From contig CAZTCF010000001.1 of NCBI GenBank assembly GCA_964612685.1, forward strand, positions 83,399 to 147,398: 64,000 nucleotides of DNA. Reading direction: 5' to 3'. Both the position numbers and the translations under genes were made by a program. Shown piece after piece: positions 5,604-58,438 of this stretch (position 1 is its first letter; each line of letters opens with the position of its first letter). Under the pieces are notes generated by a model, which was not told where the DNA came from, searched no databases, and saw only the letters and a program-made list of their open reading frames with translations. This DNA is from Candidatus Woesearchaeota archaeon (GTDB lineage: Archaea > Nanobdellota > Nanobdellia > Pacearchaeales > GW2011-AR1).

Positions 5604-5762
5604 TTAGAAAATAAAAGGCATTACTATTCTGAATGCTACGATTAAAATTACAAATAATACTACATGCGCGGGTTTTAAGTTGATGTAACTCGTATATTCT
5701 TCACTGTAACGCATTAACCCCCCAAATCCTCCTGGAAGGTTTATTTTGTTATCTGATGCCAT
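5604..5762 (-). CDS. secG: Preprotein translocase subunit Sec61beta (SecG), 52 aa, missed by the ORF track
   Basis: Hand translation: MASDNKINLPGGFGGLMRYSEEYTSYINLKPAHVVLFVILIVAFRIVMPFIF. The GGL-x-RY motif followed by a single C-terminal TM helix is the archaeal Sec61beta pattern. Confidence 0.65.
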   Translation of the reverse strand: MASDNKINLPGGFGGLMRYSEEYTSYINLKPAHVVLFVILIVAFRIVMPFIF

Positions 5763-5813
5763 GAATATTTTAAAGAGAGATAGTTTTTAAAAGTTTCTTG
5801 GATAAGATTATCT

Positions 5814-8183
5814 ATGGTAGAAGCAAATTCAAGTTCAAAGTTTGACTTTAAGCATATTGAAGATAAGTGGAAAGAATTTTGGGAAAAGGAAAAAATATAT
5901 GCTGCAGATTTAAAGAAAAAGAAGGTTTATTCTTTAGATACTCCTCCCCCCACAGTTTCGGGAGCAATGCATATTGGACATGTATTTAGTTATTCTCAGC
6001 AGGACTTTATTGCTAGATTTCAAAGGATGTATCTTGCAGATAGAAATGGATGTGTATTCTATCCTTTTGGAACTGATGACAATGGATTGCCTACAGAAAG
6101 ATTAGTTGAAAAGATGAATAATACCAAAAGTAAAGATATGTCAAGAGAGGATTTCATTAAGCTTTGTTTAAAAACACTTAAGAATATTCTTCCAGATTTT
6201 GTACGGGATTGGAAAAATCTGGGGATTTCTTGTGACTATACTGTTTCTTATTCTACAATTGATGATAATTCTAGAAAGGTTTCTCAAAAATCTTTTCTTG
6301 AATTGTACAAGAAAAAAGATATCTACAAAAAAGAATTCCCCACAATATGGTGTCCAGAATGTCAGACTTCCATTGCCCAAGCAGAACTTGAGGATAAAGA
6401 AGAAAAAAGTTTATTTTCAACTTTGAAATTTTCATGTGGAAGAAAAGATTTACTTATTGCAACAACCAGACCAGAACTTTTAGGTGCATGTGTTGCTGTT
6501 TTTGTTCATCCTGCTGATAAGAAGTATAAATCCTTTGTAGGTAAGAATGCTAAAGTTCCTTTATTTGATTATGAAGTACCAATTATCGCGGACACATCTG
6601 CAGATCCTGATAAAGGAACGGGTGCTTTGATGGTTTGCTCTTATGGAGACAAATATGATGTTGACGCAATAAACAGATATAAATTGATTCCTAGATTAAT
6701 TATTGATAAATCTGGAAAAATAAATTTTGGAGAATATAAAGGATTAAAAGTTAAGGAAGCCAGAAAAAAAATTCTTGAGAATTTAAAAAAAGAAAATTTA
6801 ATTGTTGAACAAAAAGAAATAACCCATGTAGTTAATTGTCATGATAAATGCGGGACTCCTATCGAATTTGTAACAACAGCACAATGGTTCATAAAAATTC
6901 TTGATAAAAAAGATAAATTCATTGAACAAGGAAATAAAGTTAAATGGTATCCTGAGTTTATGCATAAGAGATATGATAATTGGGTAAATGGTTTGGAATG
7001 GGATTGGAATATTTCTAGGGAGAGACATTTCGGGGTCCCTATTCCGGTTTGGGAATGTAAACAATGTGAAGAGATAATCTTAGCAGAGGAGAAGGAATTG
7101 CCTATTGATCCTTTACAGTCAAGGAAAAAATGTCCTAAGTGTAAATTAGAAGCTAAACCCGAAGAAAAAGTATTAGATACTTGGGCAACTTCCTCATTAA
7201 CCCCTCAACTTGCATCTTATTTAGTTAATGGGAAAGTTGTAGTTCCATATTCATTGAGACCACAAGCTCATGATATAATAAGGACTTGGGCATTTTATAC
7301 TATTGTTAAAAGTTATTTGCATGAAAATAAAATTCCTTGGGAAGATATTGTTATCTCAGGAAATGTTTCTTTAGGGGGAGAAAAAATGTCTAAAAGCAAA
7401 GGTAATGTTATTGATCCTAAATTGGTTTTAGAAAAATATGGGGCGGATGCTATGAGATTTTGGTCTGCAGGAAGTAAACTTGGAAATGATTTGGATTATC
7501 AGGAAAAAGATTTAATTACTGGAACAAAGATGATAAACAAATTGATTAATGCTTCAAAATTTGTTTTTATGAATCTTAAAGATTATAATCCTAAAAGTAA
7601 ACCTCACAATCTTGAGAAGCTTGATGAATTCTTTTTGGATAAGCTTAATGTTCTTGTTGAAACGTGTACGGAAAGTTTTAAGGAGTACGAATATTCTAAA
7701 GCTAAATTGGATGTTGAAAGATTTTTCTGGAGTGATTTTTGTGATAACTATCTTGAGATTGTAAAAAAGAGAGTTTATCAGGGAGAAGGAAATGCAAAAC
7801 TTTCTGCACAATACACTTTGTATCATTCCTTGCTTGTAATTTTAAAGTTGGTTGCCCCTATAATCCCATTTATAACTGAGGAAATTTATCAAGAATATTT
7901 CAGAAAAAATGAAAAAGAAAAATCAATACATATATGTTCTTGGCCAGAATCAGAAAAAGCTGAAGATAAAAATCATATAAAGATATTAGAGAGACTTTAC
8001 TTTATTATATCACAGGTTAGGCAGGAAAAATCTCTTAATAAAAAGGCAATGAATGCCGAAATTGTTTTGACCTTAACTAGAGAGGATTATGAAGAAATAA
8101 AATCTGTTCTTGGGGATTTAAAAAATGTTTCAAATGCTAAAGCAATAAGGGAAGGAAAGAAGTTTGAGGTTGAGTTTTTGTGA
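5814..8183 (+). CDS. valS: Valyl-tRNA synthetase
   Basis: Class I HIGH motif (PPPTVSGAMHIGH) and KMSKS motif (EKMSKSKGN). Archaeal ValRS-type blocks: TTRPELL, DPDKGTGALMVCSYGD, WNISRERHFGVPIP. Confidence 0.8.
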   Translation: MVEANSSSKFDFKHIEDKWKEFWEKEKIYAADLKKKKVYSLDTPPPTVSGAMHIGHVFSYSQQDFIARFQRMYLADRNGCVFYPFGTDDNGLPTERLVEKMNNTKSKDMSREDFIKLCLKTLKNILPDFVRDWKNLGISCDYTVSYSTIDDNSRKVSQKSFLELYKKKDIYKKEFPTIWCPECQTSIAQAELEDKEEKSLFSTLKFSCGRKDLLIATTRPELLGACVAVFVHPADKKYKSFVGKNAKVPLFDYEVPIIADTSADPDKGTGALMVCSYGDKYDVDAINRYKLIPRLIIDKSGKINFGEYKGLKVKEARKKILENLKKENLIVEQKEITHVVNCHDKCGTPIEFVTTAQWFIKILDKKDKFIEQGNKVKWYPEFMHKRYDNWVNGLEWDWNISRERHFGVPIPVWECKQCEEIILAEEKELPIDPLQSRKKCPKCKLEAKPEEKVLDTWATSSLTPQLASYLVNGKVVVPYSLRPQAHDIIRTWAFYTIVKSYLHENKIPWEDIVISGNVSLGGEKMSKSKGNVIDPKLVLEKYGADAMRFWSAGSKLGNDLDYQEKDLITGTKMINKLINASKFVFMNLKDYNPKSKPHNLEKLDEFFLDKLNVLVETCTESFKEYEYSKAKLDVERFFWSDFCDNYLEIVKKRVYQGEGNAKLSAQYTLYHSLLVILKLVAPIIPFITEEIYQEYFRKNEKEKSIHICSWPESEKAEDKNHIKILERLYFIISQVRQEKSLNKKAMNAEIVLTLTREDYEEIKSVLGDLKNVSNAKAIREGKKFEVEFL

Positions 8184-47716: not shown

Positions 47717-48292
47717 TTACTTAACAATTTCTCCAAATGTTTCTTCAGAAATTCCTGCTGAGTTCGCTTCATCTGTATCTATATGTAATGCCAATTCGTA
47801 CTTTTTTGATATTCTTGGAATTATGTTATGGAAGGTTATTTTTCTTTGTCCAGATGTTTTTATTGATATTATTTGGTGCGGTTTTAATTTTAATTTTTTT
47901 GCTTGTTCTTCTGAGCAGTGCAAATGTCTTTGGGCAATTATCACAGGTATTTTTGTTTTTCCTTTTGGTCCTTTAACAGATGCGATAGTTGTTCCGTGTG
48001 TGTCTCCAGACATTCTTATTTTGGGCAGGGGGTTTAAATTTAAATTATGGGCATCAGTTAGAGACATTTCTATTTGAGAGGATTCTCTTAATGGCCCCAA
48101 TACTCTTACATTAACTTTTTCTTTTCCGTTTATTATCTCTATTTTCTGTTTAGAAGCAAATTCTCCTGGTTGGGATAATTTTTTTATTGGTTCCAATTTT
48201 TTATTTTTTCCAAATAATTTTTCAAAATCTTCCTTATTTAGATGCACATGCCTTGCTGAAACTTCAACAGGTATCTTTATTTTACTTTTCAT
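47717..48292 (-). CDS. pduL: PduL-type phosphate acyltransferase (phosphotransacetylase)
   Basis: Two PduL repeats, VSARHVHL...LFG and IAQRHLHC, plus LSQPGEFA, VLGPLR..SQIE.SLTDA and HIDTDEANSAGI. Confidence 0.8.
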   Translation of the reverse strand: MKSKIKIPVEVSARHVHLNKEDFEKLFGKNKKLEPIKKLSQPGEFASKQKIEIINGKEKVNVRVLGPLRESSQIEMSLTDAHNLNLNPLPKIRMSGDTHGTTIASVKGPKGKTKIPVIIAQRHLHCSEEQAKKLKLKPHQIISIKTSGQRKITFHNIIPRISKKYELALHIDTDEANSAGISEETFGEIVK

Positions 48293-49365
48293 TCTAAAAT
48301 TTTTAAAACCTCTTCTGCAGCCATACTTTCCTCATCAGATTTTATTACATAAACTTTTATTTTTGAGAATATTGAAGATATTTTTTCATCGTTCCCATTG
48401 TTTTTATTTTTATTTAATTTTAATCCCAAGAATTTTAATTTAGCGCATATATCTTTACGTAATTTTGGAACATTTTCTCCAATTGCTGCTGTGAAAACTA
48501 AATTATCTAATCCATTTAATACTGTGATGTATGAACCAATTACTTTAGTTATTCGATATACAAATAGATCATAAGCGAGTTTGCATTCTTTATGTTCTTC
48601 CATTCCTTTTAGGACATCTCTGAAATCATTATAACCAGATATTCCTTTCAATCCAGATTGGTTGGTTAAGATTTCTTCTACATCATATTTCTTCTTTTGT
48701 AAATAAAGGATTATTCCCGGGTCTATGCTTCCTGAGCGAGTTCCCATCATGATTCCTTCTAATGGAGTCAATCCCATACTTGTATCTAAAGGTTTCCCGT
48801 CTTTTATTGCAGATATGCTTGAACCAGAACCAAGATGACAGACAATTGTTCTTCCTTTTAATTTTTTTGAAGAGTATTCATGAGATAATCCATGAAAGCC
48901 ATATCTTCTTATATTATATTTCTCGGTTATTTCTTTTGGTATAGCATACGTTTTTGCAACTTCTGGGATATTTGCAAAAAACATTGTATCAAATACAGCA
49001 TACTGTGGTTTTTGGAATTTTTCACATAATTCAATTACCATCAATTGTTTTGGGTTATGTAATGGTGCGAATTCAGAGAATGTTTTTATCTTCTCTTTGA
49101 CTTCTGAGGTTATCATTGAAGTTTCTTTAAGCTCTCCTCCATGTACTACCCTGTGTGCTAGAACATCTATATTTCTATCTATAAATTGTTGGAATATTTC
49201 TTGTACTGCGTTTTCGTAATCTTTTTTTGATTTTAATTTTTCTTTATTTCCATACTCCAATAATTTTAAATCTTCAAATAAACTATACTTTATACTTGAA
49301 CTTCCAACGTTAAACACTAATATTTTTTTTTGCATAGAATTTTTCCCCACATTATTTTTTTCCAT
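48289..49365 (-). CDS. ackA: Acetate kinase
   Basis: ILVFNVGSSSIKYSLF, HRVVHGG, YGFHGLSHEY and the ASKHA fold. Its stop overlaps the pduL start by 4 nt. Confidence 0.85.
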   Translation of the reverse strand: MEKNNVGKNSMQKKILVFNVGSSSIKYSLFEDLKLLEYGNKEKLKSKKDYENAVQEIFQQFIDRNIDVLAHRVVHGGELKETSMITSEVKEKIKTFSEFAPLHNPKQLMVIELCEKFQKPQYAVFDTMFFANIPEVAKTYAIPKEITEKYNIRRYGFHGLSHEYSSKKLKGRTIVCHLGSGSSISAIKDGKPLDTSMGLTPLEGIMMGTRSGSIDPGIILYLQKKKYDVEEILTNQSGLKGISGYNDFRDVLKGMEEHKECKLAYDLFVYRITKVIGSYITVLNGLDNLVFTAAIGENVPKLRKDICAKLKFLGLKLNKNKNNGNDEKISSIFSKIKVYVIKSDEESMAAEEVLKILE

Positions 49366-50019: not shown

Positions 50020-50172
50020 ATGCCTAAAAAGCAGATAATTGTAAAATTTGAGGGGTCTGAGATTCTTGAGAGAAAAGCTTCTAAGTTTGGAACTGGTGCT
50101 CATGTAATTATTCCTAAAGAATACATAAACAAAAAAGTAAAAATTATTATGGAGGATGAAGATGACAAGTAA
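50020..50172 (+). CDS. DUF2080-like / AbrB-type small protein
   Basis: The ATG at 50020 gives MPKKQIIVKFEGSEILERKASKFGTGAHVIIPKEYINKKVKIIMEDEDDK. The pattern (V.F.G.E..E....K.G....V.IPKEWIGKKVKII) matches my recollection of archaeal DUF2080, described as a putative transposon-encoded protein. It overlaps the giant ORF start by 17 nt. Confidence 0.5.
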   Translation: MPKKQIIVKFEGSEILERKASKFGTGAHVIIPKEYINKKVKIIMEDEDDK

Positions 50173-53100
50173 AAAGTATTTTTTTGCTTTAATCAGCATA
50201 ATTTTGATAACACTCTTATCCTATGAGGTTTTAGCAGGGACTAATGTTCCAGATTGTGGAATAACAATCAATATCTCAGGACAATATGAATTAAACGCGG
50301 GAATTTCTGGGACAGCAACTTGTCTAACAATTAATACAAGTAATATAGAACTAGATTGCAAAGGAAATACTATTTCTTATGGTTCAGATGGAGTTAATGG
50401 AAGAATTGGAATATCTGTTGCCCTTGGAACAGTTTATCTTGAAAATATCACAATAAAAAATTGCATAATTCAAGACACAAATCCTGCTGGAACCACGGGG
50501 TATGGAATATATGCATTAAGAACATCTAATTCATATATAATTAACAATACAATTAATACAAGCGGAACTGCTACAAATCACGGGATTTATTTATCTACTG
50601 CAAGTCAAAATAATCTTCTTGAAAATAATACCATAAATGCTTATGGAAGCACTACAGGAAACTATGGGATTTATTTAATTTATCAATCAAATAATAACAC
50701 AATTAGAAACAATGAAGTAAAGGCAACAGGAACAACAACAAGCTATGCACTCATGCTTTATAGCTCAGAATATAATTTAATAGAAAACAACAATTTTTCA
50801 AGTTACACTCTTTTAACAACAGGAAATTCAGATATGAATGTAGTTTATTTATACTATGGTTCAAGATATAATATTTTAAGAAATAATTACATTTATTCAG
50901 ATGCTGAAGCAAGAAATTACCATATTTATCTAAATTTAAATAATAATTATAATATCATTGCAAATAATACTATAATTCCAAATGATGATGAAGGAACAAA
51001 CCCTGGAATTTATATTCTTGGTTCTGATTACAATCTTGTAGAGAATAATACCATTAGAACAAATGGAACAACAGCCAATTATGGGGTTTGGTTAGGAGCA
51101 TCTTCAACAGGAAATATGATTAATAAAAATAATATTATCACAAATGGAACTACAACCAACAATTACGGAATTTATTTGGTAAGTGCACTTTACAATAATA
51201 TAACAGAAAATCAGATCTCCTCAAATGGATTAACAACAGGTAATGCAGGAATAACTTTATCAAGTGCCCAAAGAAATTACCTTGCAAGAAATAATATTTC
51301 TACAAGTGGGACAACAACAGGATATGGAATTTATTTGACTGGTTCTGATTATGACACAGTAGAAGATAATGATATTTCTACATTTGGAACAAGCACTGCA
51401 AATGATGGAATCTATTTAATCTCTTCTACAAACAATAACATAATAAACAACAGAATAACTGCAAATAGCACCTCTTCTGGAAATATTGGTATTGCTTTAT
51501 ATACCTCAACAGGAAATTCTTATGTTTATAATAATACTATAAAAACTGATGGAACAACTACAAATTATGGTATTTTATTACAGACTGCAAATAATAATTC
51601 GATAGTAAATAATCAAATATCAACCAGTGGAACAACTACAACAAATCATGGAATTTATCTTTATATAAGTGCAAATGCAAACAAAATCTACTATAATAAT
51701 ATCTCTACATATGGCACAACAACAAATCATGGGATTTCACTTAGCACAACTTCAGATGGAAATGAAATTGTTGGAAATTATATAATAGCTAATGGCTCAA
51801 CAACAGCCTCCGCAACAACAACAAATAATTTTGGAATTGCTGCTGCTACAAGTTGTTATAATAATCTTATGGAAAATAATACAATACTAAATTCCGGAGG
51901 AAGGTATAACTATGGTATATATATTTCAGTAGAATCTGGATATTCTACAATTAGAGGAAATAATATTACTACTGGAGGAAGTGGGGCCACAAATGCAGGA
52001 ATTTATCTTTCAGAAAGCAGAAACAACCTTCTAGAAGAAAATATAATCTCTACTTCAGGTTCTGCTACAGATTACGGTATTTATCTGTATTCTAATGCAA
52101 AATATAATTTTGTTAAGAAAAATAATATTACAACCTCAGGAAGTACTAATTCTTATGGAATTCTTCTTGATGCAGTAATTCCAAACTTCCCCCACAATAA
52201 TTCTTTTCAAGAAAATAATTTTATTAGTATTGCTGGAACAGAATTTAGATTTGCTGATGCAGAAATAGATGAAAATTATTTAATTAGCCAGATTATTGAC
52301 AGTTACTTATTTACTGGAATTGGAAGCAAAATGATTGTTAGAAATGACTCTGCAGGAGAAATAAAATTCTTAGATAGATTAACTGGTTCTGGAACAGGAT
52401 TTAGTGATGATGTATACATTTTAGAGAATTATGCTTTTATTGATTCGAGTATCCCAGGATTAAACAAGTCAGCAGAGATAACCATTTATAATTTACCAAC
52501 AACTTCAAATGAATTACAAATTTACAGGAATGGTATAATCTGCAGTGATTGTTTTAATTTAACTTCAATGCAAGCAGGAAATGTAACATTTAATGTAACA
52601 CAAGGAGGAGGATACTCAATTAATTCCTCAAGTTCATCTCCTTTAATAGAATTAGATTTCCCTGAAAATGATTATTTAACAAATCAGCAAAATATTAATT
52701 TTAATTTTACAGCTAGAGATGATTCTGTAGGAGATTTAAATTGTAGCATTTATATTGATTCTATTTTAAATCAAACCAATTCAACAACTCAAAATAATAC
52801 TCTAACTAATTTTGCTGCTAGTGGATTAACTGAAGGAAATCATAACTGGAATATTGAATGTTTTGATTCAGCAGGAAATAGAAATATTTCTGAAACAATA
52901 AATTTTACAATAACAATTTCACAATCATCCTCATTATTTAATTATCCAGAGAATAAATCTTATTTTAATAATTTAGACTTTATATTGTTAAATTATACTG
53001 TTTTAGATTTAGATTTAAAGATAATGACTGCTTGGATTTATGGGGATGAAATTCTTCTAAATACAACTTCAGGATTAACTAATGGTTCATCTTTAGTTTA

Positions 53101-56100
53101 CAATTGGACAAGTTTAGATTTAGGACAATATAACTGGTCTATAATAATCTGGAATGGAATAAAGAACTCTTCTATTGAATATTCTTACTTTAATAATATT
53201 AATTTAACAATAAATTGTGAAGCAGGAGGAGATTATCTTGAAGATCCAACTGTTTTAATTCAAGGAAGAATAAATGACAGTAGCGGGATAGTTTCATTAA
53301 GTTCACAAATAATTAATATTTCTATTTACAATGATTCCACAGAGGAAATAATCACTTCTTCAAATATAACCACAGAATCAAATGGTGTATTTAATAGTAT
53401 ATTTCCTGGATTGGAAATAGGAAATTACACTGTTTATACAAAAGTTAATTATCAAGGAATTGAAATAAATAGTTCAGACTCATTTAAAATTTCTCTTGGA
53501 TATGAAGCAGGTTACAATGCAGGATTTATTGCTGGAAATGAATCAGGATATATTTCTGGATTTGATTATGGTAATATCACAGGATTTAATTTAGGAAATA
53601 TCACAGGATTTATACTTGGAAACAATACTGGTTTCACATTAGGAAATACAACTGGATTTGTATACGGTAACCTCACAGGATTTGTTTTAGGAAATTCAAC
53701 TGGTTACATTTTAGGTAATGCAACTGGATTTACATTAGGAAATTATACTGGGTTTATATTAGGAAATCAAACAGGATTTATAATAGGAAATATTTCAGGT
53801 TTCAATCTTGGTAATTCAACCGGTTTTACACTTGGAAATTATACTGGATTCATATTAGGAAACATTTCAGGATTCTACTTTGGAAACCAGACAGGTTATA
53901 CTACAGGTTACAATGCAGGATTTATTGCTGGAAATGAATCAGGATATATTTCTGGATTTGATTATGGTAATATCACAGGATTTAATTTAGGAAATATCAC
54001 AGGATTTATACTTGGAAACAATACTGGTTTCACATTGGGCAACTCAACTGGTTATACCTTGGGATTTAACACAGGTAATATAACCGGATTTACTCTAGGT
54101 AATACTACCGGCTTTGTATACGGAAATAATACTGGTTATATTTTAGGATTTAATACAGGCAACTTAACAGGCTTCACATTAGGAAACACAACTGGCTTCG
54201 TTCTTGGCAACTCTACAGGTTATATTTTAGGTAATGCAACTGGCTTTGTATATGGTAACACAACAGGATTCATATTAGGAAACACAACGGGATTTGTATA
54301 TGGAAATATCACTGGATTTGCTTTGGGTAATTCAACAGGATTTACACTTGGAAATTTAACAGGTTATATTCTTGGAAATCAAACAGGTTATAACGCAGGA
54401 TTCAGCACAGGAAACACAACTGGATTTAATCTAGGAAATACTACAGGTTTCACATACGGAAATCTTTCAGGATTTGATCTAGGTAATGCCACGGGTTATA
54501 CCTTGGGTTATAATGCTGGTGTTAATGTTAGCAATCGCACTTCAGCATCCCTAGTCTTGGATAAGATTGCAAGTTTGCAAAATATAACAAATGGAACTAT
54601 TTCATATAATGTAACTTTAAGATTAACAAACAAAGGAGGAAGCAATTCAACAAATGTTAACATAACAGATTTAGATTATGGTTCTAACTTTACAATTGGA
54701 AATTTAACAGCAGGAGAATCAATTACAAGAAGCTATCTTATTAATTTCACAAGAAATATGACAACATATTCAAATGCAACATCAATTGCTCATGCATATG
54801 GTATTGATTCTTATTCATCTGGACAAATTTTGGCAAACTCTAGCTCAATGAATTTACCTGTCCCATCAAATGAATCTGGGCAGCAATTAACTTTGATTAA
54901 GAATGTATTTTATATTAATCAAACATTCACAGATGTAAATTATACTGTTAGTTTTGAAGTTATTAATTCCGGAGGATCAGATTTAACAGGGATTACAATA
55001 ATTGATGACGATTTGGGTATTTCTGATGTAATAAGCTTGAGTAAAACACAAAGTTATACCTACTCGGGATCATTAATAATATCTAAGAATCAGGATAATA
55101 AAGAGCAAATATTTTCAATAGCAAGAGGAACTGTAAATGCTGTTATTTATTCTTCAAATCAAATAAAAGTTTTAATTCCAGGATATGGTGGAGGTCCAAA
55201 TGATGTAAGCATTAATGCTCCTACATCTGTTTTTAATAACACCAATTTCAATGTGGATATAACTGTGAAGAATAAAAATAAAGACATAGGCCAGGACTTT
55301 GTTGTAACTTATTGGCTCTTGAGCAATGACGAGATTTCAATATATTCAACTGGAGCTCAAACTCTTTATGTTGGAGGAAATGATAATACCAATGCAACTA
55401 CAATTGTATTCTTATCTCCTGCAATTAATGGAACATATAAAATAAGGGCAAATGTGAGCGGAACAGGAGTAAGTGTTCAAGCTACTGCTTTTTCAACAAT
55501 TCTTGTTACGTATCCTTCAAATGAAACTGCAAATGAAACTCCAGTAAATCCTCCGCACGGAGGAGGTGGAGGTAGCAGAATAAGCTGTGTATATATCTGG
55601 GAGTGTGGTTCTTGGAGCCTATGTGCAGATGATGGAACTCAATCAAGAACATGTACTAATACAGGAACCTGTACAGGAATAGAAGGAAAACCAGCAGAAA
55701 AAATGAATTGCTTAGAGGTTTCTTCTGATATTGTATTAAAATTAAGTCAATTAAATTTAACTGAAAATCAAAGTTTAGAATTTAATATTGATTTGATTGA
55801 GAAGAAATCCTATGAAAACAAAGATATACAGATAACATATTCTATCTTTAATAAAACAAATATAGAGGTATTCACTAAAACAGAGACTCGTTCACTTGAG
55901 ACAAATATAAGTTATAAGGAGATTTTGGATGAATTAATGCTTACTCCAGGAGAATATACATTAAAAGTACATATATTCTATGGCAACTCTCAAAGTTCAG
56001 AAGAGGTACAATCATTTATTATAAAAGAAGAAGGTAAAAATAATATTGGAAGTAAATTACTTCTTGAGTTAACACCCGAAACAAATTTTTTAACTTACTT

Positions 56101-56365
56101 GGCAATATTTGTAATCCTTATCTTATTAATATCGCTGTTTGTGATTATGAAAAAGAAGAGAGATGTTGATGAAGTTGACTTATTGATAAAAGAAGGAAAA
56201 AGGAATATTGACAATGAAAATTTTGATGAAGCATTAGATGTCTATCCTGTTCTTAAGAGCTTATATAAACACAAATATAAAGGGGACCCATCTGCTTATG
56301 AAAAGATTACTTCTTACTCTCAATTTATTTTAAAAAGTATTAAGGATAAATTAAAAAAAGACTAG
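50156..56365 (+). CDS. Giant (2,069 aa) membrane-anchored surface protein: parallel beta-helix repeats, beta-sandwich modules, GNxTGFxL sequon array, Cys-rich module and C-terminal TM anchor
   Basis: Signal-like N-terminus (KKYFFALISIILITLLSYEVLAG; alternative ATG at 50162 after GGAGG). Roughly two dozen ~22-aa PbH1-type repeats (NNTI.T.GT.T.NYGIYL) lie at ~50340-52260. The GNxTGFxL array is at 53498-54520. CARDB/DUF11-like segments lie at ~54540-55500. The Cys module is at 55586-55711. The TM helix FLTYLAIFVILILLISLFVIM (56087-56149) is followed by KKKR and a ~70-aa tail. Confidence 0.85.
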   Translation: MKMTSKKYFFALISIILITLLSYEVLAGTNVPDCGITINISGQYELNAGISGTATCLTINTSNIELDCKGNTISYGSDGVNGRIGISVALGTVYLENITIKNCIIQDTNPAGTTGYGIYALRTSNSYIINNTINTSGTATNHGIYLSTASQNNLLENNTINAYGSTTGNYGIYLIYQSNNNTIRNNEVKATGTTTSYALMLYSSEYNLIENNNFSSYTLLTTGNSDMNVVYLYYGSRYNILRNNYIYSDAEARNYHIYLNLNNNYNIIANNTIIPNDDEGTNPGIYILGSDYNLVENNTIRTNGTTANYGVWLGASSTGNMINKNNIITNGTTTNNYGIYLVSALYNNITENQISSNGLTTGNAGITLSSAQRNYLARNNISTSGTTTGYGIYLTGSDYDTVEDNDISTFGTSTANDGIYLISSTNNNIINNRITANSTSSGNIGIALYTSTGNSYVYNNTIKTDGTTTNYGILLQTANNNSIVNNQISTSGTTTTNHGIYLYISANANKIYYNNISTYGTTTNHGISLSTTSDGNEIVGNYIIANGSTTASATTTNNFGIAAATSCYNNLMENNTILNSGGRYNYGIYISVESGYSTIRGNNITTGGSGATNAGIYLSESRNNLLEENIISTSGSATDYGIYLYSNAKYNFVKKNNITTSGSTNSYGILLDAVIPNFPHNNSFQENNFISIAGTEFRFADAEIDENYLISQIIDSYLFTGIGSKMIVRNDSAGEIKFLDRLTGSGTGFSDDVYILENYAFIDSSIPGLNKSAEITIYNLPTTSNELQIYRNGIICSDCFNLTSMQAGNVTFNVTQGGGYSINSSSSSPLIELDFPENDYLTNQQNINFNFTARDDSVGDLNCSIYIDSILNQTNSTTQNNTLTNFAASGLTEGNHNWNIECFDSAGNRNISETINFTITISQSSSLFNYPENKSYFNNLDFILLNYTVLDLDLKIMTAWIYGDEILLNTTSGLTNGSSLVYNWTSLDLGQYNWSIIIWNGIKNSSIEYSYFNNINLTINCEAGGDYLEDPTVLIQGRINDSSGIVSLSSQIINISIYNDSTEEIITSSNITTESNGVFNSIFPGLEIGNYTVYTKVNYQGIEINSSDSFKISLGYEAGYNAGFIAGNESGYISGFDYGNITGFNLGNITGFILGNNTGFTLGNTTGFVYGNLTGFVLGNSTGYILGNATGFTLGNYTGFILGNQTGFIIGNISGFNLGNSTGFTLGNYTGFILGNISGFYFGNQTGYTTGYNAGFIAGNESGYISGFDYGNITGFNLGNITGFILGNNTGFTLGNSTGYTLGFNTGNITGFTLGNTTGFVYGNNTGYILGFNTGNLTGFTLGNTTGFVLGNSTGYILGNATGFVYGNTTGFILGNTTGFVYGNITGFALGNSTGFTLGNLTGYILGNQTGYNAGFSTGNTTGFNLGNTTGFTYGNLSGFDLGNATGYTLGYNAGVNVSNRTSASLVLDKIASLQNITNGTISYNVTLRLTNKGGSNSTNVNITDLDYGSNFTIGNLTAGESITRSYLINFTRNMTTYSNATSIAHAYGIDSYSSGQILANSSSMNLPVPSNESGQQLTLIKNVFYINQTFTDVNYTVSFEVINSGGSDLTGITIIDDDLGISDVISLSKTQSYTYSGSLIISKNQDNKEQIFSIARGTVNAVIYSSNQIKVLIPGYGGGPNDVSINAPTSVFNNTNFNVDITVKNKNKDIGQDFVVTYWLLSNDEISIYSTGAQTLYVGGNDNTNATTIVFLSPAINGTYKIRANVSGTGVSVQATAFSTILVTYPSNETANETPVNPPHGGGGGSRISCVYIWECGSWSLCADDGTQSRTCTNTGTCTGIEGKPAEKMNCLEVSSDIVLKLSQLNLTENQSLEFNIDLIEKKSYENKDIQITYSIFNKTNIEVFTKTETRSLETNISYKEILDELMLTPGEYTLKVHIFYGNSQSSEEVQSFIIKEEGKNNIGSKLLLELTPETNFLTYLAIFVILILLISLFVIMKKKRDVDEVDLLIKEGKRNIDNENFDEALDVYPVLKSLYKHKYKGDPSAYEKITSYSQFILKSIKDKLKKD
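53498..54520 (+). repeat. In-frame 24-nt (octapeptide GNxTGFxL) tandem repeat array inside the giant ORF
   Basis: About 40 consecutive units. By my count, about 37 carry an N-x-S/T sequon (NIT, NTT, NST, NAT, NLT, NYT, NQT, NIS, NES). Confidence 0.9.
53508..53640 (+). repeat. Perfect 133-nt internal duplication (partner at 53904-54036)
   Basis: Base-by-base comparison shows identity from caggttacaatgc... to ...ggtttcacatt. The offset is 396 nt (132 codons). The flanking bases differ on both sides. Confidence 0.9.
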
Positions 56366-56474: not shown

Positions 56475-56786
56475 ATGGAAACTCAAATAGTAAAAAAGAA
56501 TAAAAGTTACATTGAAACAAATGATATAGCTAGAAGCCCAACACTTCAAACAGTCCTTATGGTTGAAAAATTCATAAAGGATAATTCAGGAGAATACAAA
56601 AAAACAGATTTATTCAAAAATCTCCCAAAAAAAGTAATGTGGCAAACTTTTCAGGTTATAATGGAGTATTTAGAAGAGAATTTGAGGGTAGCTTATGATA
56701 ATGAAGGATACATTGTTTATATCTGGAATCCAGAGTTTGTGGAGAGATTCAGAAATAAACCAGAATTAGAATGGAATGCAAAGTAA
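56475..56786 (+). CDS. Hypothetical protein, putative antitoxin/partner of the RelE-like gene
   Basis: 103-aa ORF that overlaps the downstream toxin-like gene by 16 nt. It has no classical RHH/AbrB motif and may be a winged helix. Confidence 0.35.
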   Translation: METQIVKKNKSYIETNDIARSPTLQTVLMVEKFIKDNSGEYKKTDLFKNLPKKVMWQTFQVIMEYLEENLRVAYDNEGYIVYIWNPEFVERFRNKPELEWNAK

Positions 56787-57091
56787 ATTTTATTGATTTG
56801 GAATTGAAGAATGCCTTTGAATATTTAGAAAAATCAGATCCAAGACTCTTCAAAGAGGTAAATAAAGCAATACAAGAAATATGCCAAAATTCTTTTTGTG
56901 GAAGAAATGTAAAGAAAAAATTAATTCCTAAAGAGCTTGTTCAAAAGCATAAAATAGACAATCTTTGGATTTATAACTTGAGGAAAGACTGGAGACTTTT
57001 ATATTCTGTTGGTAGAGACGAAATTGAACTTATAGCAGTTATTCTTGATTGGATGGATCATAAAGATTATGAAAAATTATTCAAATTCTAA
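56771..57091 (+). CDS. RelE/ParE-superfamily toxin-like protein
   Basis: The C-terminal pattern NLWIYNLRKDWRLLYSVGRDEIELIAVILDWMDHKDYEKLF parallels archaeal RelE (LYR.R.GDYR.IY.V....I.IL.I..R..AY). Confidence 0.55.
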   Translation: MECKVNFIDLELKNAFEYLEKSDPRLFKEVNKAIQEICQNSFCGRNVKKKLIPKELVQKHKIDNLWIYNLRKDWRLLYSVGRDEIELIAVILDWMDHKDYEKLFKF

Positions 57092-57154: not shown

Positions 57155-57199
57155 CCTTTTATAGGATAAATATAAAAGTTTAATTTGTGTAAAATTCTA

Positions 57200-57805
57200 A
57201 TGAAAAAAATAGCAATTGATGTGGTTTTGTTACCCTCAGAAGAGATGGTGGATAAAGCAATTGAGATTAACAAGGAGTTGCTTAAAGATTATGAAAACAA
57301 AATTGTTTTAGACAAACAGAAGTGTTTACCCCACATTTCTTTATGCATGGGGTGTGTAAATGAAGAGGATATTCCTGAAATAGAAAATGTTTTAAGAGAT
57401 ATTTCTCTGGATTTTTCAAAGATAAATCTTTCTGTAGATAAATTAGAAAAAGAGACAATACCTACTGGTAAGATTGTCTCTGGAATGAGTATTGTAAAGA
57501 CAGATATGATACAATCCCTTCATGAAGATATAATGAAAAAGCTGTGGAAGTTTTTATCTTATGAACCCGAAATATCTATGCTATTTAATCCTCCTGAAGT
57601 TGAAGAAGTAACTCTTTATTGGATAAAAAATTATAAGGACAAATATAATAATTCTTCTCTGTTTAGTCCACATATAACTGTTGGTTTTGGAGAAACAGAT
57701 AAGTTTCAATTCCCGATATCATTTACTGCTTCAAAATTAGCTATGTGTCAACTTGGGAATTATTGTACATGTAGAAAAGTTTTATTTTCTCATAACCTTA
57801 AATAA
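57200..57805 (+). CDS. 2H phosphoesterase superfamily protein (LigT / 2'-5' RNA ligase-like)
   Basis: Two H-x-T/S motifs in the expected spacing: PHISLCMG and PHITVGFG. The ATG at 57200 is preferred over the TTG at 57185. Confidence 0.55.
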   Translation: MKKIAIDVVLLPSEEMVDKAIEINKELLKDYENKIVLDKQKCLPHISLCMGCVNEEDIPEIENVLRDISLDFSKINLSVDKLEKETIPTGKIVSGMSIVKTDMIQSLHEDIMKKLWKFLSYEPEISMLFNPPEVEEVTLYWIKNYKDKYNNSSLFSPHITVGFGETDKFQFPISFTASKLAMCQLGNYCTCRKVLFSHNLK

Positions 57806-57832: not shown

Positions 57833-58438
57833 TTACTTTCCAAGTTTCTTTTTTATTTCTTTTCCTAAATAGTATGCAGAACCAAAGAATATAACTCCTG
57901 GAAGGAATGCAATTCCGAGAGTAGGAATCAGCAAGCTTGTTCCTATTGTTCCTATTGTTCCTGCTCCAACTGTTTCTAGTATCTTAACTGCATGTGATAC
58001 ATTTTGTTCAACATTTCTTTGAAGAGCATCAATTTGCATTATCATCTTTCCTTTTCTTAATATTCTTACTTTTTTATCCTCTTCTGATATTATAACAACT
58101 AAATTATCTCCTGTTGCTGCACTTATTGCTGCGGAGTGTCTTGTTCCAAAATTTTTGAATACTTTTGTGGATTTTATTCTCACCCCGTATGCTGAAACAA
58201 ATCCTTTTTTATTTATTATAACTGCACCATCCATTAAGGCTAACGATTCTAATAGTTTTGGATTCTCTACTGCTTTAAATGGAGGAATTGATTGATTAAC
58301 AAGTGGGCTGTACTTTGTTTCTCCCACAACGAAAAGTGCTCCTTCTCCTCTTTTTGCAATTCTTAATCCCACTTGTATGAGTGTTTCTTCAAGTTTTTTA
58401 GAATCTTTGTCTTTTTTAGTAGTATTTTTTTCTTTCAT
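57833..58438 (-). CDS. Diadenylate cyclase (DisA_N/DAC domain) with a C-terminal membrane anchor
   Basis: GALFVVGE, DGAVIINKKG (DGA motif), GTRHSAAISA (RHR-type motif), then the hydrophobic tail TIGTSLLIPTLGIAFLPGVIFFGSAYYLG. Confidence 0.7.
   Translation of the reverse strand: MKEKNTTKKDKDSKKLEETLIQVGLRIAKRGEGALFVVGETKYSPLVNQSIPPFKAVENPKLLESLALMDGAVIINKKGFVSAYGVRIKSTKVFKNFGTRHSAAISAATGDNLVVIISEEDKKVRILRKGKMIMQIDALQRNVEQNVSHAVKILETVGAGTIGTIGTSLLIPTLGIAFLPGVIFFGSAYYLGKEIKKKLGK

What the first reader, a model, noticed from the sequence alone, without database searches (positions are those of the whole stretch)
53498..54520. About 40 tandem GNxTGFxL octapeptides forming a regular N-glycosylation sequon ladder, with a perfect 133-nt recent duplication
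Seen directly: a 24-nt coding period repeats about 40 times. Nearly every unit has Asn at a fixed position followed by x-Thr/Ser, and I count about 37 sequons. Only the x positions vary (I, T, S, A, L, Y, Q, N). Segment 53508-53640 is duplicated without a single mismatch at 53904-54036, an offset of 396 nt that keeps the frame. The rest of the array has diverged at synonymous sites. This indicates very recent unequal recombination, so the stalk length is probably variable within the population. I do not recognise a periodic Gly/aromatic/sequon repeat of this kind as a described domain.
Basis: seen in the sequence. Interest (0 to 1): 0.65.

Follow-up and report, generated by a model that had tools for sequence, protein, structure and literature searches.

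The report
Length-variable glycine-repeat stalk, archaeal surface protein
A giant surface protein of a tiny symbiotic-type archaeon (Woesearchaeota) from anaerobic digesters carries 86 back-to-back four-residue glycine repeats, every second one a potential sugar-attachment site, and natural populations hold versions of this stalk with different repeat numbers.

Summary
Window 53498-54529 encodes 86 consecutive G-x-x-x tetrads (43 octads). There are 37 GN-x-[TS] sequon units alternating with 48 G-[FY]-x-x units. The exact 133-nt copy (53508-53640 = 53904-54036) is confirmed.

The array sits between beta-sandwich domains in a 2,069-aa protein with a signal peptide, a pectin-lyase-like beta-helix and a C-terminal membrane anchor. 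The organism is a Candidatus Woesearchaeota (DPANN) archaeon.

The repeat is not entirely undescribed. Pfam Yae1_N (the deca-GX3 / GxxxG glycine repeat) matches above its threshold, and about 1,350 protein clusters carry related arrays. The extracellular, sequon-bearing archaeal form appears uncharacterised.

The 133-nt copy is present in two copies in all 10 runs where it formed its own unitig. It is not the footprint of a fresh 396-nt crossover, because the rest of that interval is only about 56% identical.

Length variation is nevertheless real. A different 420-nt block (54036-54455) occurs in about 1, 2 or 3 copies across public metagenomes, and alleles are mixed within single samples. Orthologues carry 0 or 36-40 tetrads.

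The fold is unresolved, because AlphaFold2 confidence is low across the array. My best reading is a rigid, N-glycosylated spacer whose length is tuned by recombination.

The parts
50156..56365 (+). Whole gene: 2,069-aa type-I membrane-anchored surface protein
   Evidence: Single ORF. Orthologues P0053, P0054, P0058 and P0194 share the architecture.
50156..50236 (+). Predicted Sec signal peptide (aa 1-27, MKMTSKKYFFALISIILITLLSYEVLA)
   Evidence: Read from the sequence: a basic n-region, a hydrophobic core and a small-residue cleavage motif. No predictor was run.
50450..52200 (+). Right-handed parallel beta-helix region (pectin-lyase / NosD-like). Boundaries are approximate.
   Evidence: Pfam Beta_helix E=2.7e-27 and NosD E=2.3e-24, five stretches each.
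52664..52912 (+). Bacterial Ig-like domain (Big_13), aa 837-919
   Evidence: Pfam 27.2 bits against a cut-off of 27.
53195..53497 (+). Beta-sandwich domain immediately before the array (aa 1014-1114)
   Evidence: AlphaFold2 with alignment A1 gives pLDDT of about 80-90 and an all-beta fold. Foldseek finds Ig-like or GH2-type sandwich domains.
53498..54529 (+). GX3 array: 86 G-x-x-x tetrads (aa 1115-1458), with 37 GN-x-[TS] sequon units alternating with 48 G-[FY]-x-x units
   Evidence: Pfam Yae1_N E=1.3e-11, 44.4 bits.
53498..53569 (+). Array 'head' cap, GYEAGYNAGFIAGNESGYISGFDY. It is conserved at the start of the array in all orthologues.
   Evidence: P0053, P0054, P0058, P0194, P0001.
53508..53640 (+). 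Exact 133-nt repeat, copy 1
   Evidence: It forms its own unitig at about 2x depth in 10 runs.
53858..53905 (+). Orthologue-type array 'tail' (GNISGFYFGNQTGYTT). This is where sub-array 1 ends and the second head begins.
   Evidence: the same motif ends the single array of P0001, P0194, P0054 and P0053.
53904..54036 (+). Exact 133-nt repeat, copy 2. It is the head of sub-array 2.
54036..54455 (+). 420-nt block (35 tetrads, 140 aa) whose copy number varies between and within natural populations. Crossover occurs in the shared GGTTTCACAT (54026-54035 and 54446-54455).
   Evidence: L002 and L003 carry two copies. An exact 50-nt junction unitig is present in 8 of 12 runs, and the ratio of block depth to flank depth is 0.8-2.7.
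54551..54754 (+). Beta-sandwich domain after the array (aa 1466-1533)
   Evidence: AlphaFold2 pLDDT of about 80-87.
56087..56149 (+). C-terminal transmembrane helix (FLTYLAIFVILILLISLFVIM), followed by KKKRD
   Evidence: Read from the sequence.
56150..56362 (+). Short cytoplasmic tail with no sequons
   Evidence: 0 sequons. Orthologues carry a PRC-barrel domain here.

Best explanation
The region is the central repeat module of a membrane-anchored surface protein of a Woesearchaeota (DPANN) archaeon.

What it is. It is an extracellular, very long form of the GX3 (GxxxG) glycine repeat, with 86 tetrads in the window. Every second tetrad carries an N-x-T/S sequon, and the tetrads in between carry an aromatic residue plus Leu.

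How I think it works. I propose that it folds into an elongated, regular rod. The invariant glycines allow very close backbone packing. That packing could be a glycine-zipper helical pairing like the one predicted for Yae1-Lto1, or a repetitive beta structure. The sequon asparagines would carry N-glycans, giving a sugar-coated spacer. The spacer sets how far the N-terminal beta-helix and Ig-like 'head' projects from the membrane.

How its length changes. Length changes by recombination between repeats in two ways:
- Whole-array duplication through the similar head and tail caps.
- Unequal exchange at short identities inside the array.
As a result, populations carry alleles of different stalk length.

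Status of each step.
- Shown here: the repeat anatomy, its location between folded domains in a predicted ectodomain, sequon enrichment, the family relationship, and the length polymorphism.
- Inferred: glycosylation, rod shape, spacer function, and any benefit of length variation.
For: Anatomy:
- 86 uninterrupted tetrads; only the residue two positions after each Gly is freely variable.

Topology:
- A signal peptide and a C-terminal TM helix followed by KKKR place the array outside the cell.
- Folded beta-sandwich domains flank it with pLDDT 80-90.

Sequons:
- 10.8 per 100 aa in the array, 3.9x the shuffled expectation.
- 4.6-4.8 per 100 aa in the rest of the ectodomain.
- About 0.4 per 100 aa in the other ORFs of the window, and 0 in the cytoplasmic tail.
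- Every GN unit is a sequon. T-to-S exchange is tolerated and x is never Pro.

Family:
- Pfam Yae1_N is above threshold.
- 1,351 representative clusters match at E<=1e-3.
- The same GN-x-[ST]-G-[FYW] alternation occurs in unrelated archaeal membrane-anchored proteins such as P0002, P0004, P0005, P0057, P0059 and Bathyarchaeia proteins.

Dispensable, length-tunable module:
- Orthologue P0196 has no array.
- P0053, P0054, P0058, P0194 and P0001 have 36-40 tetrads. The window has 86, and L002 and L003 have 121.

Population polymorphism:
- The junction unitig for the extra 420-nt block is absent in X1, X2 and X10. It is at 0.34-0.47x flank depth in X4 and X12, 0.6-1.25x in X5-X8 and X13, and 1.9x in X9.
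- Block depth tracks this, running from 0.8x to 2.7x.

Context:
- Cultivated DPANN archaea have AglB and sequon-rich pectin-lyase-fold, Ig-rich surface proteins (bioRxiv 10.1101/2023.10.27.564410, read).
Against: - No glycan data exist, and no AglB gene lies in the window. The rest of the genome was not searched.
- The fold is unresolved. AlphaFold2 gives pLDDT 28-66 over the array. It predicts a helix in one half and a period-4 'EE--' pattern in the other. No solved structure matches beyond a weak T4 gp5 hit.
- Gly, Asn, Thr and beta-branched residues have poor helix propensity, unlike the E/A/K-rich GX3 runs of Yae1, FliH and the bacterial homologues.
- GN-x-T tetrads also occur in phage or virus fibre-like proteins, which may not be glycosylated in their hosts. 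The motif could therefore be structural rather than a glycosylation site.
- Copy numbers come from k-mer depths of short unitigs. No long read spans the array.
Confidence: 0.6

Rival explanations
1. The array is a beta-solenoid or a trimeric beta-helix fibre. In this reading N, T, F and L form internal ladders (Asn ladder, Thr stack, aromatic stack), so the 'sequons' are structural and are largely not glycosylated.
For: - In a beta-strand, the conserved N2, T4, F6 and L8 fall on one face, and Gly plus the variable x fall on the other (read from the sequence).
- The AlphaFold2 segment with the highest confidence inside the array (pLDDT 60-66) is a period-4 strand/turn pattern. The single-sequence run also gave strands.
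- The T4 gp5 C-terminal triple beta-helix is the only PDB match (E=2.4e-4).
- GN-x-T tetrad arrays occur in phage-fibre-like proteins with Mtd_N domains.
Against: - The gp5 match rests on GN-T alone. The conserved inward Val of gp5 aligns with the array's variable x7, and gp5's outward charged residue aligns with the conserved Leu.
- Two glycines per octad are not a gp5 feature.
- The Pfam and homologue links point to the helical GX3 class.
- The strict N-to-S/T coupling with free T/S exchange, no Pro, and a sequon-rich ectodomain fit real sequons.
- Model confidence is low throughout the array.
Confidence: 0.25
2. The array is itself the functional binding surface. It would be an adhesin face rich in aromatic, Asn and Thr residues that binds host-cell glycans or the host S-layer. 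Copy-number change would then alter avidity or specificity rather than reach.
For: - Regular Phe/Tyr plus Asn/Thr faces are typical of carbohydrate-binding and ice-binding repeat proteins (general knowledge).
- DPANN archaea are commonly episymbionts whose surface proteins are thought to mediate host contact.
- Related arrays sit in virus-like contigs, where host recognition is expected.
Against: - Orthologue P0196 lacks the array altogether but keeps every other domain. This fits a spacer better than an essential binding site.
- The beta-helix and Ig-like domains are more conventional binding modules.
- There are no binding data.
Confidence: 0.12
3. The repeat arrangement, meaning the 133-nt copy and/or the length variants, is an artefact of short-read assembly.
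For: - MAG contig L001 has a run of N inside the array.
- Contigs L004 and P0195 break inside the array.
- No long-read run was available.
Against: - In the 10 independent runs where the repeat forms its own unitig, the de Bruijn unitigs give it about 2x depth. The connecting piece has 1x depth and no alternative path.
- X1 and X2 have unbranched unitigs running through the short allele.
- The long-allele junction is an exact 50-nt unitig seen in 8 runs, at depths that match the block's excess depth.
Confidence: 0.03

Closest known systems
Deca-GX3 motif of Yae1/Lto1 (Pfam Yae1_N, PF09811)
   Same: It consists of tandem G-x-x-x units, often with an aromatic residue after Gly. The Pfam model matches the array's head motif above the gathering score and matches most homologues. 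Glycines are needed for Yae1-Lto1 pairing (PMC4523923). AlphaFold predicts an intertwined helical pair with a continuous glycine interface (PMC12810181).
   Different: Yae1 and Lto1 are cytosolic eukaryotic Fe-S adaptor proteins with about 10 units rich in E, A, K and Q. Here there are 86-121 or more units, outside the cell, rich in N, T, F and I, with a sequon in every second unit. There is no Lto1-type partner or C-terminal Trp, and a helical fold is not established.
GxxxG glycine repeats of FliH / YscL (type III secretion)
   Same: These are long runs of Gly at period 4 whose repeat number varies between species. Some homologues of the array are auto-annotated 'FliH'.
   Different: FliH has at most about 12 repeats, is cytoplasmic, and has helix-favouring residues. 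The authors found no helix in the PDB with more than three contiguous repeat segments, and called long glycine repeats like FliH's presumably quite rare in nature (PMC2674601).
T4 gp5 C-terminal triple-stranded beta-helix (VxGxxxxx octapeptides)
   Same: It has an 8-residue period with GN-x-T at the repeat start. It is the only PDB sequence match (E=2.4e-4). It is also a rigid extracellular rod.
   Different: It has one Gly per octad, and its conserved inward Val is out of phase with the array's conserved positions. The match is weak and driven by periodicity.
Sequon-rich pectin-lyase-fold / Ig-fold surface proteins of DPANN archaea (for example Nanobdella aerobiophila MJ1_0451, MJ1_0701 and MJ1_0776)
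   Same: The overall protein type is the same: a parallel beta-helix plus Ig-like folds and tens of predicted N-glycosylation sites, some with a C-terminal TM helix.
   Different: That report does not describe a GX3 array. Those proteins are 908-1,320 aa long.
Variable-number tandem-repeat surface proteins (for example bacterial adhesin stalks whose repeat number differs between strains)
   Same: In-frame repeat-number change by recombination or slippage occurs, and alleles coexist in a population.
   Different: The exchanged unit here is a 35-tetrad block (420 nt) inside a degenerate array. The organism is an uncultivated archaeon. No phenotype is known.

Membership tests
Pfam Yae1_N / deca-GX3 motif | Score at or above the Pfam gathering threshold | tested here: met
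   44.4 bits against a cut-off of 27.5, E=1.3e-11, best stretch aa 1251-1287. The periodic Gly dominates the score.
Pfam Yae1_N / deca-GX3 motif | About ten or more consecutive G-x-x-x units | tested here: met
   86 consecutive units.
Pfam Yae1_N / deca-GX3 motif | Cytosolic Fe-S adaptor context (Yae1-Lto1 pair, Rli1 client, C-terminal Trp on Lto1) | tested here: not met
   The array lies between a signal peptide and a C-terminal TM anchor in an archaeal surface protein. No such partner features are present.
Pfam Yae1_N / deca-GX3 motif | Alpha-helical pairing through a continuous glycine face | tested here: inconclusive
   AlphaFold2 predicts a helix for aa ~1116-1243 at pLDDT 44-53 and a strand/turn pattern elsewhere at pLDDT 60-66. 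No multimer prediction was possible.
FliH/YscL GxxxG repeat | AxxxG(xxxG)mxxxA segment in the N-terminal part of a type III secretion ATPase regulator | tested here: not met
   There is no FliH domain and no flagellar or T3SS genes nearby. The organism is an archaeon.
T4 gp5-type triple beta-helix | VxGxxxxx octapeptide with a conserved inward Val two residues before Gly | tested here: not met
   In the alignment the gp5 Val column pairs with the array's variable x7 (I, T, N, V, D).
Archaeal N-glycosylated surface protein | Secretory topology (signal peptide, membrane anchor) | tested here: met
   Read from the sequence. No dedicated predictor was run.
Archaeal N-glycosylated surface protein | Sequon enrichment confined to the ectodomain | tested here: met
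   112 sequons in the ectodomain and 0 in the tail. Cytoplasmic ORFs have about 0.4 per 100 aa.
Archaeal N-glycosylated surface protein | Glycans actually attached, and an AglB oligosaccharyltransferase in the genome | not testable with these tools
   No WWD[YWF]G motif occurs in the window. The rest of the genome was not searched, and no proteomic data are available.
Variable-number tandem-repeat surface gene | In-frame repeat-number alleles coexisting in natural populations | tested here: met
   The ratio of block depth to flank depth is 0.8-2.7, and the ratio of junction depth to flank depth is 0-1.9, across 10 runs. X4, X5 and X12 are intermediate. This rests on unitig depths, not long reads.

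The most novel reading that the evidence does not exclude
The sequon-bearing GX3 array may be a previously unrecognised extracellular structural element used by archaea and by archaeal viruses. It would be a glycan-sheathed glycine-zipper rod, or a new period-4/8 solenoid. Its length would be adjusted in steps of tens of tetrads by recombination, so that coexisting strains display heads at different distances from the cell. That would serve as a contingency mechanism for host attachment or virus evasion in DPANN symbionts.
Probability: 0.3. Interest if true: 0.75.

Novelty: new variant of a known kind. Interest (0 to 1): 0.55.

Why it matters
- GxxxG runs longer than about a dozen units were called presumably quite rare in nature (PMC2674601). 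Here there are uninterrupted runs of 86 to about 156 units outside the cell.
- Related arrays occur in about 1,350 protein clusters, and none has a solved structure. A structure would define how a protein built from Gly at every fourth residue folds.
- The strict sequon in every second unit would make this one of the densest regular N-glycosylation ladders known. That makes it a natural test substrate for archaeal oligosaccharyltransferase.
- The coexisting length alleles give a concrete, testable case of surface-protein contingency variation in DPANN archaea, which are uncultivated and widespread in digesters. The way DPANN archaea contact their hosts is poorly understood.

Tried and rejected
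- AlphaFold2 on a single sequence (aa 1014-1579) gave mean pLDDT 36.7, which is unusable.
- AlphaFold2 with a 50-sequence alignment resolved only the flanking beta-sandwiches.
- Foldseek against the PDB with that model returned only Ig-like or GH2 sandwich hits for the flanks.
- PDB sequence searches were run with the array, with a GNVT-type viral array and with a Bathyarchaeia homologue. They gave only T4 gp5 (weak) and low-complexity matches.
- Searches for Nanopore and PacBio runs holding the locus listed none.
- RNA-labelled runs gave only a few small contigs inside the gene. I treat this as a hint of transcription, not as evidence.
- Literature searches for PF09811 and for DPANN surface repeats found no description of this repeat.
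- I rejected a simple recent 396-nt tandem duplication, because only 133 nt are identical.
- I rejected membership of the gp5 beta-helix family, because the conserved positions are out of phase.
- I rejected an assembly artefact, because unitig topology and depth agree across independent runs.
- The coupling of N at position 2 with S/T at position 4 across homologues is strong (65% against 22%). It is biased, because the hits were selected with a sequon-bearing query, so I give it little weight.
Full report
**1. The observation**

The finding lies inside one ORF, 50156-56365 on the + strand, encoding 2,069 aa. From aa 1115 to aa 1458 (nt 53498-54529) glycine occupies every fourth residue without a single miss. 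That gives 86 tetrads, or 43 octads. It is the only such run in any frame of the window.

The composition of the tetrads is as follows:
- Position 2 is Asn in 37 tetrads, Phe in 34, Tyr in 14 and Val in 1.
- All 37 GN tetrads are N-x-[TS] sequons (32 Thr, 5 Ser, never Pro).
- In the aromatic tetrads, position 4 is mostly Leu (26 of 48).
- The residue two positions after each Gly is the freely variable one.

The true period is 4, and the N/aromatic alternation slips at about seven places.

The perfect 133-nt copy is exact and maximal (53508-53640 = 53904-54036). Tandem Repeats Finder sees the 24-, 48- and 96-nt periods. Identical tetrapeptides outside the copy average 81% nucleotide identity, so the array is otherwise diverged at synonymous sites.

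**2. The protein and the organism**

The window has about 30% GC. It encodes archaeal-type CDC48, family B DNA polymerase and two-subunit PheRS.

The non-repeat part of the gene is 100% identical at protein level to contigs of two MAGs labelled Candidatus Woesearchaeota archaeon (L001, L002). It is also 100% identical to an 8.7-kb contig binned as Smithella (L003). At least 20 public runs from anaerobic digesters, sludge and wastewater hold 91% or more of the locus's k-mers.

The protein has these parts, in order:
- A signal-peptide-like N-terminus.
- A right-handed parallel beta-helix region (Pfam Beta_helix and NosD) and a Big_13 domain.
- A beta-sandwich domain directly before the array and another directly after it (AlphaFold2 pLDDT 80-90; Ig-like Foldseek hits).
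- A C-terminal TM helix followed by KKKR and a 71-aa tail.

The array is therefore an ectodomain module.

Sequons are strongly enriched in the ectodomain:
- 10.8 per 100 aa in the array, 3.9 times the shuffled expectation.
- 4.6-4.8 per 100 aa elsewhere in the ectodomain.
- About 0.4 per 100 aa in the other 45 ORFs of the window.
- None in the cytoplasmic tail.

This is the profile of a heavily N-glycosylated archaeal surface protein. [quoted passage not shown] Glycosylation here is an inference. No AglB motif is in the window.

**3. Relatives**

Pfam Yae1_N (PF09811, the 'deca-GX3' motif) matches above its gathering score: 44.4 bits against 27.5, with the best stretch on the second head motif.

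A word-indexed search found 48 relatives, most with precomputed PF09811. An exhaustive phmmer search of 1.84 billion representatives found 1,351 at E<=1e-3 and 144 at E<=1e-10.

Among 190 retrieved hits, excluding close orthologues, I distinguish three flavours:
- 83 have aromatic GYxx-type arrays without sequons. In the examples read, x is rich in E, A, K and D, and the proteins appear to be bacterial secreted proteins, one of them 3,400 aa long.
- 43 have GN-x-[TS]-only arrays. Some carry phage tail-fibre domains (Mtd_N).
- 27 have the alternating sequon/aromatic type. Examples are membrane-anchored proteins P0002, P0004, P0005, P0029 and P0057, the multi-domain P0059, and about 250-aa Bathyarchaeia proteins with an N-terminal TM segment and a conserved C-terminal domain.

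P0057 and P0005 sit in contigs made of many small ORFs without Pfam hits, plus Dam, PAPS reductase and radical-SAM genes. This looks viral or proviral but was not pursued.

The repeat class is therefore known as a sequence motif, from Yae1/Lto1 (PMC4523923) and FliH/YscL (PMC2674601). I found no description of the extracellular sequon-bearing form.

**4. Anatomy of the array and the 133-nt copy**

Five orthologues at 48-69% identity (P0053, P0054, P0058, P0194, P0001) have one array of 36-40 tetrads. Each array has:
- A conserved sequon-free head, GY..GY.AGFIAGNESGYI.GF.
- A conserved tail, GN.SGFYFGNQTGY..GY..GF[IV]AG.

A sixth orthologue, P0196 (53% identity), joins the two flanking domains with no array at all.

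In the window, tetrads 1-34 reproduce the orthologue array down to its tail (GNISGFYFGNQTGYTT). The head then starts again, and that second head is the 133-nt copy. Head and tail share GY.AGFIAG, which offers a natural site for unequal exchange that duplicates a whole array.

Beyond the 133 nt, the two sub-arrays are only 70-83% identical in any register. A recent 396-nt duplication would have left 396 identical bases. I infer an older tail-to-head duplication followed by a short conversion-like transfer that re-homogenised the head. Other histories cannot be excluded.

**5. Is the arrangement real, and does length vary?**

I laid the Logan unitigs of 12 metagenomic runs from several studies on the locus. 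In the 10 runs where it assembles as its own unitig, the 133-nt repeat has about 1.5-2.6 times the flank depth. The 323-nt piece 53611-53933, which links the end of copy 1 to the start of copy 2, has 1x depth. That topology has only one linear solution, which is the window's arrangement. No sample shows a form lacking the 396-nt interval.

The surprise came from the MAG contigs. L002 and L003 are 99.6% identical in the flanks but carry an array 420 nt (140 aa, 35 tetrads) longer, 121 tetrads in all. The cause is a tandem second copy of window 54036-54455. L001 has a run of N at that place. The crossover lies in a shared GGTTTCACAT.

The 50-nt junction unitig of this long allele matches L002 exactly. 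The table gives its depth, and the depth of the 430-nt block unitig, each divided by flank depth.

| Run | Junction / flank | Block / flank |
|---|---|---|
| X1 | 0 | 0.93 |
| X2 | 0 | 0.81 |
| X4 | 0.34 | 1.15 |
| X12 | 0.47 | 1.28 |
| X5 | 0.93 | 1.47 |
| X6 | 0.58 | 1.96 |
| X7 | 1.18 | 1.93 |
| X8 | 1.25 | 2.09 |
| X13 | 1.25 | 2.19 |
| X9 | 1.88 | 2.67 |

In X1 and X2 a single unbranched unitig runs from the repeat into the right flank. X10, at low depth, also shows no junction.

The block therefore occurs in about one, two or three copies. Alleles coexist within single samples. X3 shows a further junction (54507 joined to 54064) at about half depth, which I could not resolve.

In the two-copy populations the block is a single unitig at 2x depth, meaning its copies are identical. 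That is the signature of a truly recent unequal exchange.

These copy numbers rest on k-mer depths. No long-read run was listed.

**6. Fold and mechanism**

AlphaFold2 is not confident about the array.
- The single-sequence run gave mean pLDDT 36.7 with 6-residue strands.
- With a 50-sequence alignment, the first part of the array is drawn as long helices (pLDDT 44-53), the middle is unstructured (28-40), and the last part has a period-4 strand/turn pattern (60-66).

The only PDB sequence match is the T4 gp5 C-terminal triple beta-helix (E=2.4e-4). That match rests on GN-T at period 8. The conserved inward Val of gp5 aligns with the array's variable position.

The conservation pattern fits two models equally well:
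- A helix whose glycine stripe is an interface, with +1 and +3 flanking it and +2 opposite and variable.
- A strand with one conserved face.

The helical glycine-zipper model is favoured by the Pfam and homologue link to GX3 motifs. AlphaFold predicts an intertwined helical pair with a continuous glycine interface for Yae1-Lto1 (PMC12810181). Against it stands the poor helix propensity of G, N, T and I.

I therefore commit only to an elongated regular rod that spaces the N-terminal head from the membrane, probably glycan-coated. Rough lengths for 344 aa would be about 50 nm as a straight helix pair, or about 20 nm as a gp5-like beta-helix. Each 420-nt block would add about 21 nm or about 8 nm respectively. 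These figures are inferences from standard rises per residue.

A spacer role fits three observations. The array is absent from one orthologue. Its length varies widely between species and strains. It sits between independently folded domains.

**7. Verdict**

- The repeat belongs to a known motif class, but in a new, extreme, extracellular and sequon-bearing form.
- The flagged 133-nt copy is real and fixed, and it is not evidence of a fresh 396-nt crossover.
- The predicted within-population length variation does exist, at a neighbouring 420-nt block.
- Glycosylation, fold and function remain to be shown.

Noticed in passing
L002:4549-6010 and L003 (same gene); L001:~5674-5818: Two public MAG contigs carry a 121-tetrad allele of the same gene. 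A third has a run of N inside the array, which looks like an assembler gap at the variable block.
   Followed up: yes
L003 (CAYVFA010000098.1): This 8.7-kb contig is 100% identical at protein level to the Woesearchaeota gene, but it is deposited in a MAG labelled uncultured Smithella sp. It is probably a binning error.
   Followed up: no
L006:10001-13741 (P0057) and L007:10001-11764 (P0005): Membrane-anchored proteins with GN-x-T-G-[WY] arrays lie in syntenic contigs full of small ORFs without Pfam hits. The contigs also carry Rce1-like genes, and L007 also carries Dam, PAPS-reductase and radical-SAM genes. This suggests archaeal viruses or proviruses that use the same repeat in a surface protein.
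   Followed up: partly
P0012, P0020, P0010 and about 30 similar proteins (Bathyarchaeia): A family of about 250-aa proteins has an N-terminal TM segment, a 25-45-tetrad GX3 array with scattered sequons, and a conserved C-terminal domain (RDPTYxE...FIEPQ.D) that has no Pfam match. Some are auto-annotated as FliH.
   Followed up: partly
P0196 (orthologue, 53% identity): This orthologue of the surface protein lacks the array. The flanking domains are joined directly (…SFSIGGELTSASLLLNKIASF…).
   Followed up: yes
window 56475-57091 (+): Two small overlapping ORFs (103 and 106 aa) lie just downstream. The second has sub-threshold YoeB/ParE toxin matches (24.9 and 22.7 bits), so this may be a type II toxin-antitoxin pair.
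   Followed up: partly
window 57185-57805 (+) and 57833-58438 (-): One ORF resembles a 2H-phosphoesterase or 2'-5' RNA ligase (sub-threshold, with two H-x-[ST] motifs). The other is a membrane-anchored diadenylate cyclase (DAC domain, E=5e-17).
   Followed up: no
window 47717-49365 (-): Acetate kinase and a PTAC-type phosphotransacylase lie directly upstream of the surface-protein gene. This suggests fermentative, acetate-forming metabolism.
   Followed up: no
window 54064-54507, run X3: A third junction type joins 54478-54507 to 54064 onward. It has about half the locus depth in one sludge metagenome, which implies a further array allele that I could not reconstruct.
   Followed up: partly
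window 54138-54585 and 55565-56133 (runs X25, X26): Small contigs from RNA-labelled metagenomic libraries fall inside the gene. In X25 and X26 almost none fall in neighbouring genes. This is a weak hint that the gene is transcribed at a comparatively high level.
   Followed up: partly
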